In this document: positions 399-7,902 of the stretch, in pieces
Position numbering within the stretch: position 1 is the first letter of the stretch
Layout of the letters: each line of letters opens with the position of its first letter
IMG/VR virus record: IMGVR_UViG_2541047498_000013
Reading direction: 5' to 3' (one strand)
Length of the DNA: 7,902 nt
DNA from: a virus
Lineage: Duplodnaviria; Heunggongvirae; Uroviricota; Caudoviricetes
Notes under the pieces: model-generated
What the model was told of the DNA's origin: nothing
The model's database searches: none
The model's input: only the letters and a program-made list of their open reading frames with translations
Position numbers and translations under genes: made by a program

Positions 399-686
399 TC
401 AGATAGAGAAGGGAAATTGTCGCCGAGAATGTGTCACGCTTACAATCTCAATGCTTGAAGCAGCTACTCTGTACAGGATTATGTAGTTAGGGTGGGTCAC
501 GATCTCTCTCAATCCAGAAACCCGTTCGCTTGGTGGATATAAGTACGGATGCTCAGATAGAGGTAATACCGATGTTTCAATGCGTATTTTTAGTCTACGT
601 GCTGCCGGTGGGTTCTCCTTGGCGATGTAAGTTATGATCTGGCGCAAATCATCGCGAGCAGACGGTAGCCATAAAATGGGTAACAT
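399..686 (-). CDS. parE: Type II toxin, RelE/ParE superfamily (ParE2-like, gyrase-poisoning family)
   Basis: 95-aa ORF beginning MLPILWLPSARDDL and containing LPLSEHPYLYPPSERVSGLREIVTHPNYIILYRV, which I recognise as ParE-family motifs. Its ATG overlaps the upstream antitoxin stop by 1 nt (TAATG), the typical toxin-antitoxin coupling. Confidence 0.8.
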   Translation of the reverse strand: MLPILWLPSARDDLRQIITYIAKENPPAARRLKIRIETSVLPLSEHPYLYPPSERVSGLREIVTHPNYIILYRVAASSIEIVSVTHSRRQFPFSI

Positions 687-877
687 TACTCGCTCTTGTT
701 AGTTACAGCAATTTGAGCAATAAGATTTTCCATTTCAGCCATTACCTCGTCATGTGGAATTGCGGGGCGAGTGTCTGCAAGGCTTGACGTTACTTTAGTG
801 CGCAACCATTCGTTGTAACTGTTTTCTTGTTCGGTAGTTTCGAATTCTGAAACTATCGGAGAAAGGGCTGTACCCAT
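686..877 (-). CDS. paaA2: Type II antitoxin, PaaA2-like (small antitoxin partner of ParE2-type toxins)
   Basis: 63-aa ORF with SPIVSEFETTEQENSYNEWLRTKVTSSLADTRPAIPHDEV, recalled as closely resembling the 63-aa PaaA2 antitoxin. AGAGGAG Shine-Dalgarno 7 nt upstream of the ATG; sits immediately upstream of and overlapping the toxin. Confidence 0.75.
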   Translation of the reverse strand: MGTALSPIVSEFETTEQENSYNEWLRTKVTSSLADTRPAIPHDEVMAEMENLIAQIAVTNKSE

Positions 878-904
878 GGCATAACTCCTCTTCTTGTACT
901 GTGG

Positions 905-1306
905 TCACGCCCGGCGGCTTTTTTGTGCCGCCAGCCACCTAGCAATGGTTTCTTCCATTGATTTTTTCTTGTCTTTGATTTCTTGAAGCATTTTTTCTTG
1001 GTCTTCCTCAGGAAACGCACTAAAAGCTTGGAGCAGTTCGCGTTGGCGAGGACCAATTTTCATCGTGTCAGGGGTGAAAATTTGCTCACACTCTTCAGGA
1101 GGCAATAAAAACCAATGCAATGGATGCCCTGAAACCTCAACCAGTTTATCCAAACTTGAGGCTTTAGGTGTAGCCTTACCGCTGACCCATTGTTGAACAG
1201 TTTGTTGTGTCACACCAATTCTACGGGCAAGCTCAGCCTGGCTCCATCCAGTTTCCTGAAGAAGCTTGCTGATTCTGTACATAGATACTTCTAGGGCGCT
1301 CATCAT
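905..1306 (-). CDS. paaR2: XRE-family HTH transcriptional regulator, CI-like prophage repressor / PaaR2-like regulator of the toxin-antitoxin operon; no LexA-type peptidase domain seen
   Basis: 133-aa ORF with HTH motif WSQAELARRIGVTQQTVQQWVSGK; no GDSM-type S24 protease motif in the C-terminal half. First gene of a leftward three-gene cluster, divergent from the Cro-like gene. Start uncertain: ATG at 1306 has no Shine-Dalgarno (possibly leaderless); in-frame ATG at 1282 would give MYRISKLL. Confidence 0.75.
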   Translation of the reverse strand: MMSALEVSMYRISKLLQETGWSQAELARRIGVTQQTVQQWVSGKATPKASSLDKLVEVSGHPLHWFLLPPEECEQIFTPDTMKIGPRQRELLQAFSAFPEEDQEKMLQEIKDKKKSMEETIARWLAAQKSRRA

Positions 1307-7229: not shown

Positions 7230-7787
7230 ATGACCACTATTACCAAAGATCGACTGCTGACAATCCAGCATTGGCGCGAAACATACGGACCGGGTAGCAA
7301 CGTTGTGCTTCCAGCAGAAGAAGCGGAAGAGCTGGCACGGATTGCGCTGGCATCACTGGCAGCAGTATCGGATGAACGAGCAGCCTATGAATTATTTATG
7401 GAGAAGCGTTTCGGAGAATCTGTAGATCGCCGCAGAGCAAAAAATGGCGATAGAGATTACATGGTATGGGATATGGCGCTTGGCTGGATTATCTGGTGTC
7501 ACCGCGCCGCCATGCTTCAGGCTGGAAACTTTCGGGAAAATAAGGGTTCGTCAACCAATAATTTTCGGGAAATCTCGGAAACGTCAACCAACTATCCGGC
7601 AATCCCTGATGAGGTGTTGTCCGCAATCCTGAAGGTCGCCAGGCTTCGTGCAGATTTCGATGCTTCTGAAGTGGACAGGCGAGGTATCGGTAGTTGTCTG
7701 GATGAGGCCGAGCAAGAACTTATCGTTACCATTAACGAATACGCCAGTCAGATCGCAGTAGAAGCGACACAGGGGGAGAACCAATGA
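7230..7787 (+). CDS. Hypothetical phage protein (185 aa)
   Basis: ATG 2 nt after the upstream stop with AAGGTG 7-8 nt upstream; long ORF co-oriented with the cassette. No family recognised. Confidence 0.6.
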   Translation: MTTITKDRLLTIQHWRETYGPGSNVVLPAEEAEELARIALASLAAVSDERAAYELFMEKRFGESVDRRRAKNGDRDYMVWDMALGWIIWCHRAAMLQAGNFRENKGSSTNNFREISETSTNYPAIPDEVLSAILKVARLRADFDASEVDRRGIGSCLDEAEQELIVTINEYASQIAVEATQGENQ

Positions 7788-7861
7788 GCCGGCCAGATGC
7801 ATTTGCAGGCGTTGCTATAGCTATTGCTTTTCTAGTATATGTTATTTGTCGGTGGGGGTAA
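7784..7861 (+). CDS. Unannotated 25-aa hydrophobic peptide (MSRPDAFAGVAIAIAFLVYVICRWG), predicted single-pass membrane peptide
   Basis: ATG overlaps the upstream stop (ATGA) and is preceded by GGGGAG 6 nt upstream. Below the length cut-off of the supplied ORF track. Hydrophobic core AGVAIAIAFLVYVI. Confidence 0.45.
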   Translation: MSRPDAFAGVAIAIAFLVYVICRWG

Positions 7862-7896
7862 AAACGTTCGCCGGGATTCACACCAAGGGAGGGAAT

Positions 7897-7902
7897 ATGT
7901 CG
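7897..7902 (+). CDS. Start of a further rightward gene (only 2 codons in window)
   Basis: ATG at 7897 preceded by AAGGGAGGG 3-4 nt upstream; truncated by the window edge. Confidence 0.35.

What the first reader, a model, noticed from the sequence alone, without database searches (positions are those of the whole stretch)
7784..7861. Unannotated 25-aa hydrophobic peptide gene translationally coupled to the upstream ORF
The ATG at 7784 overlaps the stop of the 185-aa gene (ATGA) and has a GGGGAG Shine-Dalgarno 6 nt upstream. The product MSRPDAFAGVAIAIAFLVYVICRWG is essentially one transmembrane helix. Small hydrophobic peptides of this kind in prophages can act as membrane-active toxins or modulators of membrane proteins (general knowledge; function here unknown). 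It is missed by length-filtered ORF callers.
Basis: seen in the sequence. Interest (0 to 1): 0.45.

Follow-up and report, generated by a model that had tools for sequence, protein, structure and literature searches.

The report
Unannotated prophage small membrane peptide gene
A 25-codon gene for a one-helix membrane peptide sits at the end of a prophage early gene and is skipped by standard annotation; it is conserved as a coding sequence and occurs in roughly a third of complete E. coli genomes, but its function is unknown.

Summary
ATG 7784 overlaps the TGA (7785-7787) of the 185-aa gene. GGGGGAG (7772-7778) lies 5 nt upstream. The ORF 7784-7861 encodes MSRPDAFAGVAIAIAFLVYVICRWG.

One 25-codon ORF is not beyond chance, but comparison shows a real gene family (M-x-[W/R]-P-[E/D]-A-F ... 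I-C-R-W-G-stop, 25-28 aa):
- Among 206 prophage copies, 198 keep the ATGA start/stop overlap behind at least five different upstream gene ends.
- 201 stop directly after the final Gly, using TAA, TGA or TAG, ahead of many unrelated downstream sequences.
- Indels are in frame.
- Window versus a diverged copy: 26 differences, 17 at third codon positions, pN/pS 0.27.

The family is absent from Pfam, NCBIfam, PHROGs and PADLOC. RefSeq left it unannotated in all five records inspected. The exact 25-aa sequence is missing from a 15-billion-protein collection.

It most likely encodes a Trp-flanked single-pass inner-membrane peptide, made by translational coupling with an Ea22-like early gene. Function is unknown. 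A partner-binding membrane modulator fits better than a stand-alone type I toxin.

There is no direct translation evidence. The adjacent 34-aa peptide gene is translated in published O157:H7 Sakai RIBOseq. Rare G5-to-G6 alleles fuse the two peptides.

The parts
7230..7787 (+). Upstream 185-aa gene. It belongs to the mosaic Ea22-like / 'MTTITKERL...' early-gene family and here lacks the C-terminal DUF551 domain. Its last codons carry the SD for the small ORF.
   Evidence: One search gives the ORF. One search finds no Pfam hit and one search finds PHROG hits of unknown function. One search shows homologues that share the N-terminal and central modules and end in DUF551 or other tails. RefSeq calls it 'hypothetical protein' or 'DUF551 domain-containing, partial'.
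7772..7778 (+). Shine-Dalgarno-like GGGGGAG, 5 nt before the ATG, inside the upstream gene.
   Evidence: The equivalent GGAGGTG or GGAGGA is present in all upstream contexts listed.
7784..7787 (+). ATGA start/stop overlap (ATG of the small ORF, TGA of the 185-aa gene). This is the site of the inferred termination-reinitiation coupling.
   Evidence: The overlap is conserved in 198 of 206 family copies behind at least five different upstream gene ends.
7784..7861 (+). Small ORF, 25 codons plus TAA: MSRPDAFAGVAIAIAFLVYVICRWG. It is the window allele of a 25-28-aa family with conserved ends, [W/R]P[E/D]AF at the N-terminus and ICRWG at the C-terminus.
7799..7849 (+). Predicted transmembrane core, residues 6-22 (AFAGVAIAIAFLVYVIC), with a small-residue stripe G-x-A-x-A-x-A.
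   Evidence: Kyte-Doolittle 2.66 over 17 residues. One search shows G, A and F columns conserved. AlphaFold2 models the equivalent residues as one helix, at moderate confidence.
7854..7858 (+). G5 tract directly before the TAA stop. G6 alleles elsewhere fuse this ORF to the downstream 34-aa ORF, which lies in the -1 frame.
   Evidence: L097, L098, L099: TGGGGGGTAAAA.
7862..7896 (+). 35-nt spacer with the SD (GGGAGGG, 7887-7893) of the next gene. No terminator-like hairpin was seen.
   Evidence: One search finds no terminator-like site in the homologous stretch of L002.
7897..7902 (+). First two codons (ATG TCG) of the neighbouring 34-aa single-helix peptide gene (MSDDISL[A/V]MEGALAVIAVVGVYCLVVFLM[D/E]RLGN), cut by the end of the window.
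   Evidence: WP_001278460/50. Sakai ECs_5710 is XECs145, with RIBOseq signal.

Best explanation
The ORF at 7784-7861 is a genuine protein-coding gene. It is the window's allele of an uncatalogued family of 25-28-residue peptides found in lambdoid prophages of Escherichia and Shigella.

Shown by sequence comparison: the start codon, the SD, the 4-nt ATGA overlap with whichever gene lies upstream, the reading frame, and the stop immediately after the C-terminal Gly are all conserved, while both flanks are swapped by mosaic recombination.

Inferred mechanism:
- Ribosomes finishing the preceding Ea22-like early gene reinitiate at the overlapping ATG with help from the SD. The peptide would therefore be made together with that gene, probably from the early rightward transcript during lytic development, and possibly at a low level in lysogens.
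- The product inserts into the inner membrane as one helix. A Trp or aromatic residue sits at each interface (WPEAF ... CRWG). The acidic N-terminus would face the periplasm and the Arg-containing C-terminus the cytoplasm.
- It acts through helix-helix packing along its conserved small-residue face (G-x-A-x-A-x-A). The partner could be itself, the adjacent 34-aa peptide where that is present, or a host or phage membrane protein.

Its biological effect is not known. My best guess is a membrane-protein or membrane-state modulator that serves the phage (host takeover or exclusion), not a self-standing toxin.

The confidence given applies to 'real, coupled, membrane-peptide gene'. The specific mode of action deserves about 0.3.
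For: (1) Boundaries. Of 206 copies found by scans that did not constrain start or stop, 198 have ATGA and 2 have GTGA. 201 have a stop directly after CRWG, using TAA (185), TGA (15) or TAG (1).

(2) Flanks. The upstream gene end varies while the SD and ATGA persist...PLPEPPQEV[R/N]Q...AVEATQGENQ (this window)...GLISVEDVLR...LKNIEQEVNR...ERGGHEEGDK. The downstream sequence varies too: the 34-aa gene plus hok/sok, hok/sok directly, ParDE, a PAPS-reductase/DUF3440 pair, or terminator-like hairpins.

(3) Samples anchored outside the ORF. 90 of 91 copies upstream of the 34-aa gene are intact. 5 of 6 new copies found through the DUF551 gene end are intact, by translating the sequences printed.

(4) Indels are in frame: 6 nt between the window allele and the 27-aa alleles, and a 6-nt deletion in L148.

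(5) Substitutions. In the 48 interior nucleotides that the search pattern left free, none of 49 unique sequences has an in-frame stop. Column entropy is 0.85 at codon position 3, 0.47 at position 1 and 0.27 at position 2, and pN/pS is 0.46. Window versus L096: 26 differences in 72 nt, 17 of them at position 3, pN/pS 0.27, simulation P about 0.0002. Other diverged pairs behave similarly.

(6) More than 40 peptide variants keep P4, A6, F7, G11, I23, C24 and W26 and remain hydrophobic between them.

(7) Hydropathy and the AlphaFold2 helix.

(8) Indirect expression evidence. In Sakai RIBOseq, XECs145 is the 34-aa gene called with a 60-nt 5' extension that covers the last 22 nt of the small ORF and the spacer. 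In LB it has translatome RPKM 346, RCV 4.35 and coverage 0.99 (PMC5597208). That study considered only ORFs of at least 30 aa.

(9) Natural fusions of the small ORF to the 34-aa ORF occur in two different backgrounds. This weakly suggests that both are translated.
Against: - No direct evidence of translation of this ORF exists (no initiation-site profiling, tagging or mass spectrometry).
- The interior substitution pattern does not by itself discriminate the sense frame from the antisense frame that shares its wobble positions (pN/pS 0.36 versus 0.46). The call therefore rests on the conserved start, SD and stop, and on position 2 being less variable than position 1.
- The commonest allele carries an Asp inside the hydrophobic core (AIAIDFLVY). 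This may mean relaxed constraint or a functional polar residue.
- A few copies are broken: ATA start, 1-nt deletions after ATG, a TAG at codon 3.
- The 3' half of the window-type allele is identical at the nucleotide level to the 27-aa alleles linked to the 34-aa gene, so within that clade conservation reflects recent common descent.
- Topology, partners and function are inference only. Nothing here tests them.
Confidence: 0.78

Rival explanations
1. It is a membrane-depolarising toxin of the type I kind (like Hok, Ldr, TisB, Ibs, ShoB or ZorO). In this reading its production is harmful to the cell and it serves addiction, abortive infection or lysis timing.
For: It is a very short, strongly hydrophobic single-helix peptide. 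It lies in prophages immediately upstream of hok/sok loci in many copies (Rfam sok hits at L002 4437-4611 and L096 3180-3354). It also sits next to other toxin-antitoxin cargo such as ParDE in L094.
Against: - No match to any Pfam, NCBIfam or PADLOC family, including the type I toxin families.
- No Rfam RNA overlaps the ORF.
- No own promoter or structured leader is apparent. Instead the start overlaps the stop of an ordinary upstream gene and has an exposed SD, the opposite of the tight translational repression typical of type I toxins (established knowledge).
- It lacks the charged or polar tail common in those toxins.
- There are up to 5-7 copies per genome.
- The hok/sok neighbour is only one of many alternative downstream neighbours.
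Confidence: 0.1
2. The stretch is conserved for a non-coding reason, such as a promoter or operator for downstream cargo, an RNA element or a recombination hotspot. Alternatively, the 49-codon antisense ORF (7881 to 7732) is the real gene. In either case the 25-codon sense ORF would be incidental.
For: The antisense frame that shares wobble positions is open in 48 of 49 unique interiors and has pN/pS 0.36. The 3' half of the ORF and the spacer are nearly invariant at the nucleotide level within the clade linked to the 34-aa gene. A weak promoter-like match lies on the minus strand at the ORF's 3' end in L002.
Against: - The antisense ORF has no conserved start. In many contexts there is none, or the first start falls inside the overlap. 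Its length varies from 37 to over 100 codons depending on the flanks.
- The sense ORF keeps ATG, SD and a stop at exactly the same codon, using three different stop codons in unrelated downstream contexts.
- Synonymous sites between clades are near saturation (pS about 0.79, i.e. 14.3 of 18.2 sites) while the peptide ends stay identical. This is not what a DNA or RNA signal would give.
- No Rfam family matches.
- The promoter-like count does not exceed shuffled expectation.
Confidence: 0.05
3. The functional product in window-type prophages is a two-helix protein of about 72-74 aa. It would arise when ribosomes slip -1 on the G tract at G-GGG-TAA (7854-7861) and read through the spacer into the 34-aa ORF. 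Alternatively, G5/G6 tract-length variation could switch between separate and fused peptides.
For: The 34-aa ORF lies in the -1 frame and that frame is open across the 35-nt spacer. A G5 run immediately precedes the stop. G6 alleles encoding 74-aa fusions exist in two different sequence backgrounds (P0035, P0036; L097-L099). AlphaFold2 models the fusion as two helices joined by a loop.
Against: - Only 3 of 206 copies are G6.
- No classical X-XXY-YYZ heptamer or nearby stimulatory structure was identified.
- In the other clade the Gly codon is GGA or GGT and there is no downstream 34-aa ORF, so the tract is not a family feature.
- The 34-aa ORF has its own SD and ATG.
- In a fusion the second helix would have the opposite orientation to the one expected for the free peptide (inference).
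- The G6 contigs could be decaying copies.
Confidence: 0.04

Closest known systems
Type I toxin peptides of enterobacteria (Hok/Gef, Ldr, TisB, Ibs, ShoB, DinQ, ZorO)
   Same: They are under 60 aa and essentially one hydrophobic helix. They are often missed by annotation and are frequent in prophages. A hok/sok locus is a common downstream neighbour of this gene.
   Different: There is no sequence relationship. No antisense RNA or repressed leader is detectable. This ORF is translationally coupled to an upstream gene rather than silenced. It has Trp-flanked ends rather than a charged tail. Toxicity is untested.
Small inner-membrane regulatory proteins of E. coli (AcrZ, MgtS, MgrB, KdpF, CydX, PmrR; named from my own knowledge of the field)
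   Same: They are single-pass peptides of 25-50 residues that act by binding a larger membrane protein. Several are co-transcribed with, or placed at the end of, the relevant operon. A small-residue packing face is plausible here.
   Different: This peptide is phage-encoded and has no homology to any of them. No partner is identified. It is coupled to a soluble Ea22-like protein of unknown function rather than to a transporter or kinase operon.
The neighbouring 34-aa peptide (RefSeq WP_001278450/60; Sakai ECs_5710; XECs145 of Hücker et al. 2017, PMC5597208)
   Same: It is also a one-helix prophage peptide, lies in the same intergenic 'gap' before hokD, was long unannotated, and is restricted to Escherichia and Shigella. 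It is always preceded by the small ORF in the 91 copies sampled and is occasionally fused to it.
   Different: The sequence is unrelated. It exceeds the 30-aa thresholds, so it is now annotated and has RIBOseq support. It occurs in only one of the many downstream contexts of the small ORF.
Phage small membrane proteins made early for superinfection exclusion or host takeover (e.g. T4 Imm, HK97 gp15; from my own knowledge)
   Same: They are phage-encoded, membrane-embedded, and expressed with early genes rather than with the lysis cassette.
   Different: Those proteins are larger, about 60-160 aa and often multi-pass, and unrelated in sequence. No exclusion phenotype has been tested here.
Start/stop-overlapping (ATGA) translationally coupled gene pairs in bacterial and phage operons
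   Same: There is a 4-nt ATGA overlap with the SD embedded in the 3' end of the upstream gene, conserved across contexts.
   Different: Nothing unusual, except that the downstream partner is only 25-28 codons long and the unit 'last about 20 nt of the upstream gene plus the small ORF' travels together through mosaic exchanges.

Membership tests
Genuine protein-coding small ORF | Reading frame kept open, with conserved start and stop, in diverged homologues and in different flanking contexts | tested here: met
   198 of 206 copies have ATGA and 201 of 206 stop directly after CRWG. 90 of 91 and 5 of 6 copies are intact in the samples anchored outside the ORF. Indels are multiples of 3.
Genuine protein-coding small ORF | Excess of synonymous over non-synonymous change in this frame | tested here: met
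   pN/pS is 0.24-0.56 in pairwise comparisons and 0.27 for window versus L096, with 17 of 26 differences at codon position 3 and simulation P about 0.0002. Entropy runs position 3 > position 1 > position 2. Caveat: the wobble-sharing antisense frame scores similarly in the interior. It is excluded by its lack of conserved boundaries.
Genuine protein-coding small ORF | Direct evidence of translation (ribosome footprints at the start, or a detected peptide) | not testable with these tools
   Only indirect evidence is available. XECs145 in Sakai RIBOseq covers the last 22 nt of the ORF and the spacer with coverage 0.99. That study excluded ORFs under 30 aa. The peptide string is absent from the searched literature and from the supplements of the EDL933 RNAseq/RIBOseq paper PMC5331693.
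Translationally coupled gene pair | Start codon overlapping or abutting the upstream stop, with an SD inside the upstream gene | tested here: met
   ATGA is at 7784-7787 and GGGGGAG at 7772-7778. Both are conserved behind at least five upstream gene ends.
Translationally coupled gene pair | Downstream translation depends on upstream translation | not testable with these tools
   This needs a reporter fusion with a premature stop placed in the 185-aa gene.
Single-pass membrane peptide | Hydrophobic stretch long enough to span the bilayer, predicted helical | tested here: met
   The 17-residue window scores Kyte-Doolittle 2.1-2.7 in three alleles. AlphaFold2 gives a helix over residues 3-31 of the fusion protein, mean pLDDT 69. 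No dedicated TM predictor or experiment was available.
Type I toxin-antitoxin toxin (Hok/Gef, Ldr, TisB, Ibs, ShoB and similar) | Sequence membership of a known toxin family | tested here: not met
   No families at E <= 1 in Pfam, NCBIfam or PADLOC for the 25-aa and 27-aa peptides.
Type I toxin-antitoxin toxin (Hok/Gef, Ldr, TisB, Ibs, ShoB and similar) | Antisense RNA antitoxin overlapping or adjacent, and an own promoter with a translationally repressed leader | tested here: not met
   The Rfam gathering-threshold scan finds sok only at the separate hok locus downstream, and nothing over the ORF. The ORF start overlaps an upstream gene's stop with an exposed SD. No plus-strand promoter-like site was found upstream in L002. 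A novel, undescribed sRNA cannot be excluded.
Type I toxin-antitoxin toxin (Hok/Gef, Ldr, TisB, Ibs, ShoB and similar) | Toxicity or membrane depolarisation on expression | not testable with these tools
   Requires an expression experiment.
Catalogued phage protein family (PHROGs) | Significant match to a PHROG profile | tested here: not met
   Only weak hydrophobic matches, best E = 0.01 over three alleles, to different PHROGs of unknown function.
Programmed -1 frameshift site | Slippery sequence with the downstream ORF open in the -1 frame, conserved across the family, plus a stimulatory element | tested here: inconclusive
   The G5 tract before TAA and an open -1 frame into the 34-aa ORF are present in the window-type clade. 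The tract is absent from the other clade, which uses GGA or GGT. No stimulator was identified. The fused forms are G6 alleles at the DNA level.

The most novel reading that the evidence does not exclude
In window-type prophages the 25/27-aa peptide and the adjacent 34-aa peptide would form a two-component membrane device. Its stoichiometry or covalent linkage would be switched at the G5 tract before the stop, either by -1 ribosomal slippage at G-GGG-UAA or by G5/G6 length variation, yielding a two-helix fusion of about 74 aa. Together with the hok/sok locus immediately downstream, this device would govern membrane integrity during prophage induction or superinfection. That would make it a new kind of phage-encoded micro-protein exclusion or abortive-infection module.
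Probability: 0.06. Interest if true: 0.7.

Novelty: new member of a known kind. Interest (0 to 1): 0.4.

Why it matters
Small membrane proteins are a recognised but badly under-annotated class. This family is a clean example of the problem.
- It is conserved as a coding sequence.
- It is present in about 670 (window-type clade) and about 1,700 (second clade) of 5,426 complete E. coli genomes, often in several copies and including O157:H7.
- It falls below the 30-codon thresholds of gene callers and of the published EHEC ribosome-profiling screen.
- It is absent from Pfam, NCBIfam, PHROGs and PADLOC.

It marks the 3' end of the Ea22-like early-gene module, exactly where prophages carry variable toxin-antitoxin and defence-like cargo. 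A function in membrane physiology during induction or superinfection would therefore bear on Stx-prophage biology. The practical value is a defined motif and coordinates that allow annotation and a simple set of wet-lab tests. Conceptually it is not surprising.

Tried and rejected
- Phage GenBank collection (INPHARED): no blastn match for 7740-7902. The junction is seen only in chromosomal prophages and IMG/VR prophage contigs.
- Pfam, NCBIfam, PHROGs and PADLOC: nothing significant for three alleles of the peptide, the 34-aa neighbour or the fusion.
I used the 45-aa mis-started database entry P0004 instead.
- Literature: the peptide string 'ICRWG' gave only irrelevant papers. The supplements of the EDL933 RNAseq/RIBOseq paper contain none of the peptides. 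Papers mentioning DUF551 say nothing about a downstream small ORF.
- K-12: the DUF551 gene yfdS in CPS-53 is followed by yfdT, and no family member lies in that 12-kb region. The other K-12 prophages were not scanned.
- Interior dN/dS as sole proof of the frame: rejected, because the antisense frame sharing wobble positions scores as well. I relied on boundary conservation instead.
- The 45-aa GTG-start version annotated in some records: rejected as the family's start. The window has an in-frame stop 17 codons upstream with no alternative start. Other upstream contexts lack the extension. The extension overlaps the conserved DUF551 C-terminus in another frame.
- Idea that the ORF belongs to the hok mRNA (mok-like): rejected. 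The Rfam sok/hok hit starts 42 nt (L096) or about 215 nt (L002) after its stop, and many copies have no hok nearby.
- AlphaFold2 of the 74-aa fusion gave only two helices at pLDDT 69 and pTM 0.37. That is too generic for a fold search, so none was run.
- The whole-window search found no complete E. coli genome covering at least 80% of the window. The window is a mosaic, and its exact source was not identified.
Full report
**What is in the window**

Searches confirm the finding to the base.
- The 185-aa ORF (7230-7787) ends in TGA at 7785-7787.
- An ATG at 7784-7786 overlaps that stop (ATGA).
- The purine run GGGGGAG lies at 7772-7778, followed by a 5-nt spacer.
- The ORF 7784-7861 encodes MSRPDAFAGVAIAIAFLVYVICRWG and ends in TAA.
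- The peptide is dominated by one hydrophobic stretch. Residues 6-22 score Kyte-Doolittle 2.66 and overall GRAVY is 1.24.

The ORF alone proves nothing. Twenty-one ORFs of at least 20 aa overlap the last 1.1 kb of the window, and an ATG overlapping a TGA stop needs only an A before the stop.

The window is the immunity, replication and early region of a lambdoid prophage. It carries:
- a ParE/PaaA2/HTH module;
- YdaS- and YdaT-like genes;
- a DnaC/IstB-like ATPase;
- DUF1627 and Ead/Ea22-like genes.

No complete E. coli genome in the collection covers 80% of the window, so it is a mosaic.

**Annotation status**

The last 263 bp are 100% identical to O157:H7 prophages. In five RefSeq records inspected, the stretch between the upstream gene and a 34-aa 'hypothetical protein' is left empty.

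The exact 25-aa sequence is not among 15 billion predicted proteins. A 27-aa allele, MIWPEAFAITGVAIAIDFLVYVICRWG, is annotated in a handful of GenBank records. It sometimes appears as a 40-45-aa form started at an upstream GTG or ATG. No Pfam, NCBIfam, PHROG or PADLOC family matches.

**Is the frame conserved?**

I collected copies in three ways.

(a) Anchoring on the first 22 nt of the downstream 34-aa gene, outside the ORF. This gave 91 prophage copies and 14 distinct sequences. The ORF is intact in 90. The alleles differ by an in-frame 6-nt indel and by scattered substitutions.

(b) A protein search with a mis-started 45-aa database entry. This revealed a second, much more diverged clade (for example MTWPEAFTTVGIAMAVALVVYSICRWG), including Escherichia albertii.

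(c) A degenerate DNA pattern fixing only WPEAF and C-[R/S]-W-G, with a free gap of 40-56 nt.
- In one genome per species, 15 stretches matched. Three carry the family: E. coli, Shigella flexneri, and a 1.8-kb 'Segatella copri' MAG contig, probably a contaminant, whose copy is frameshifted. The other 12 have arbitrary gap lengths.
- In IMG/VR it found more than 120 loci, almost all with a gap of exactly 48 nt.

Over the 206 pooled copies, for which start and stop were not constrained:
- 198 begin with ATG overlapping the upstream stop as ATGA, and 2 begin with GTGA;
- 201 have a stop codon immediately after the terminal Gly (TAA 185, TGA 15, TAG 1);
- more than 40 different peptides occur.

A fourth sample anchored on the DUF551 gene end added six new copies. 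Five are intact, including still more diverged alleles: MSWPDAIVTLGMVFAVAFVVYSICRWG and MMNWPEAFTAVGVAIAVAFILYSLFRWG.

**Flanks are swapped, the unit is not**

The gene upstream ends in at least five unrelated ways:
- ...PLPEPPQEV[R/N]Q (DUF551);
- ...AVEATQGENQ (this window);
- ...GLISVEDVLR;
- ...LKNIEQEVNR;
- ...ERGGHEEGDK.

Every one of them retains a GGAGG-type SD and the 4-nt overlap.

Most of these upstream genes are mosaic relatives of one another. They share an N-terminal 'MTTITKERL...ARIALASLEA' module and a central 'FRENK.SSTNNFR...DEAEQELIVTIN' module. The window's 185-aa protein is a version without the DUF551 domain. DUF551 is described in the literature as a portable C-terminal domain of Ea22 variants and of K-12 YfdS (PMC10834534, PMC4776307).

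Downstream of the stop the sequence is equally variable:
- the 34-aa gene followed by hok/sok (this window's type, as in L002);
- a hok/sok locus directly (L096, Rfam sok hit 42 nt after the stop);
- ParD/ParE on the other strand (L094);
- a PAPS-reductase/DUF3440 pair (L097, L099);
- several hairpin-terminator-like sequences.

The small ORF is therefore the last gene of the Ea22-like early module. It sits at a mosaic boundary where toxin-antitoxin and defence-like cargo is inserted.

**Substitution pattern**

In the 48 interior nucleotides left free by the pattern:
- none of 49 unique sequences has an in-frame stop;
- column entropy is 0.85, 0.47 and 0.27 for codon positions 3, 1 and 2;
- pN/pS is 0.46.

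Window versus L096 shows 26 differences in 72 aligned nt, 17 of them at position 3 and 2 at position 2. That gives pS about 0.79, pN about 0.22 and pN/pS 0.27. Random placement of the same number of changes reached this in about 1 of 5,000 trials. Other inter-clade pairs behave alike.

One caution arose. The antisense frame that shares wobble positions with the sense frame is also open and has pN/pS 0.36. The window's 49-codon antisense ORF 7881-7732 is in that frame. I therefore checked its boundaries. It has no conserved start; in many contexts there is none, or the first start lies inside the overlap. Its length swings from 37 to over 100 codons with the flanks. Only the sense ORF has fixed ends. 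I conclude that the sense ORF is the selected coding unit.

**What the peptide looks like**

The alignment shows P4, A6, F7, G11, I23, C24 and W26 invariant, and M1, W3, E5 and R25 nearly so. This describes:
- an aromatic, acidic N-terminal cap (WPEAF);
- a hydrophobic core of about 17 residues with a stripe of small residues (G-x-A-x-A-x-A);
- a C-terminal I-C-R-W-G.

The window allele has R3 and D5 in place of W3 and E5 and is two residues shorter. AlphaFold2 models the region as one continuous helix at moderate confidence, using the 74-aa natural fusion as the vehicle.

By the positive-inside rule (established knowledge) the Arg-bearing C-terminus should be cytoplasmic. This is inference, not a test.

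**Expression**

The ATGA overlap plus SD is the textbook arrangement for termination-reinitiation coupling. Its preservation through every upstream swap argues that it matters.

Direct evidence of translation is lacking. The EHEC Sakai RIBOseq study considered only ORFs of at least 30 aa (PMC5597208). It did report XECs145, which is the neighbouring 34-aa gene called with a 60-nt 5' extension. That extension covers the last 22 nt of the small ORF and the whole spacer. In LB, XECs145 had transcriptome RPKM 79, translatome RPKM 346, RCV 4.35 and coverage 0.99. I mapped it to prophage Sp6.

Footprints over the extension are what terminating ribosomes on the small ORF would leave. However, multi-copy mapping and initiating ribosomes on the 34-aa gene could also explain them.

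**The neighbour and the G tract**

The 34-aa gene starts at 7897, 35 nt after the TAA, in the -1 frame, and that frame is open across the spacer. A G5 tract (7854-7858) directly precedes the stop.

Two different sequence backgrounds carry G6 alleles that fuse both peptides into 74-aa proteins (P0035 and P0036; L097-L099). This loosely suggests that the two peptides can work as one unit. It also raises a low-probability frameshift or phase-variation idea.

Against that idea, only 3 of 206 copies are G6. The other clade uses GGA or GGT and has no 34-aa gene.

**What it most likely is and does**

- Firm: a real, conserved, uncatalogued small gene whose initiation region is locked to the end of the preceding gene.
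- Likely: a single-pass inner-membrane peptide.
- Speculative: it acts by helix packing with a partner (itself, the 34-aa peptide, or a host or phage membrane protein) to adjust membrane function for the phage early in development.

I rank a stand-alone type I toxin lower, for four reasons:
- there is no family match;
- there is no antisense RNA or repressed leader;
- expression is coupled and open;
- there are up to 5-7 copies per genome.

**Prevalence, novelty and score**

The window-type clade is present in 674 of 5,426 complete E. coli genomes. The second clade is present in 1,724 of 5,426.

This is a new, unannotated member of a well-known kind, the small phage or bacterial membrane proteins. 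It is useful for annotation and easily testable, but not conceptually surprising. I score interest at about 0.4.

Noticed in passing
window 7897-7902 (continues beyond the window); L002 4258-4362: A second one-helix micro-protein gene (34 aa, MSDDISL[A/V]MEGALAVIAVVGVYCLVVFLM[D/E]RLGN) starts 35 nt after the small ORF, in the -1 frame. It is annotated in RefSeq. It corresponds to XECs145 / ECs_5710 in Sakai, which has a strong RIBOseq signal in LB. In 91 sampled copies it is always preceded by the small ORF.
   Followed up: partly
window 7854-7858; L097 1053-1277, L098 556-780, L099 3001-3225: A G5 tract lies directly before the TAA stop. Natural G6 alleles in two different backgrounds fuse the small ORF and the 34-aa ORF into a 74-aa two-helix protein. 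This could be simple indel decay, phase variation, or a hint of -1 slippage.
   Followed up: partly
L002 4437-4761; L096 3180-3354; Sakai L331 2256-2468: A hok/sok-type type I toxin-antitoxin locus (Rfam sok, 115 bits) lies just downstream of the module. It comes after the 34-aa gene in window-type prophages and 42 nt after the small ORF's stop in the other clade. Other copies carry ParDE or a PAPS-reductase/DUF3440 pair at the same place, so this junction behaves as a cargo-insertion hotspot.
   Followed up: partly
window 7230-7787 compared with L064, L165, L204, L030 upstream genes: The 185-aa gene is a short member of a highly mosaic Ea22-like family, with shared N-terminal and central modules and interchangeable C-terminal domains including DUF551. 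Its last six codons (ACA CAG GGG GAG AAC CAA TGA) are homologous at the DNA level to the DUF551-type ending (CCG CAG GAG GTG CGC CAA TGA). The SD-bearing tail therefore travels with the small ORF.
   Followed up: partly
window 399-1306, minus strand: A ParE toxin (399-686), a PaaA2-type antitoxin (686-877) and an HTH repressor (905-1306) form a three-gene module. It resembles the paaR2-paaA2-parE2 system, which I recall from the literature as an O157:H7 system (resemblance from memory, not tested here). It lies next to the YdaS/YdaT-like genes.
   Followed up: no
L227, L236, L250, L270, L311 (immediately after the DUF551 gene stop): Unrelated small hydrophobic ORFs of 26-43 aa, for example MALFIAGAVIGGCLTWLACWYNRKDY, directly follow DUF551 genes in other, non-enterobacterial phage contigs. 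The rate is 5 of 95, against 25 of 1,507 for arbitrary ORFs of at least 100 aa in the same loci. This is a weak hint that a small membrane peptide after this gene type is a recurring arrangement.
   Followed up: no
window 7732-7881, minus strand: A 49-codon antisense ORF shares wobble positions with the small ORF and therefore mimics purifying selection (pN/pS 0.36). It lacks conserved ends in other contexts. This is a reminder that dN/dS alone cannot assign the strand for short hydrophobic ORFs.
   Followed up: yes
L094 and L095 (start region of the small ORF): One allele has ATA in place of the ATG (…GCGCCAATAAGCTGG…). Annotators called a 45-aa version from an upstream GTG that overlaps the DUF551 C-terminus. 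This is either a dead copy or a copy that uses an alternative start.
   Followed up: no
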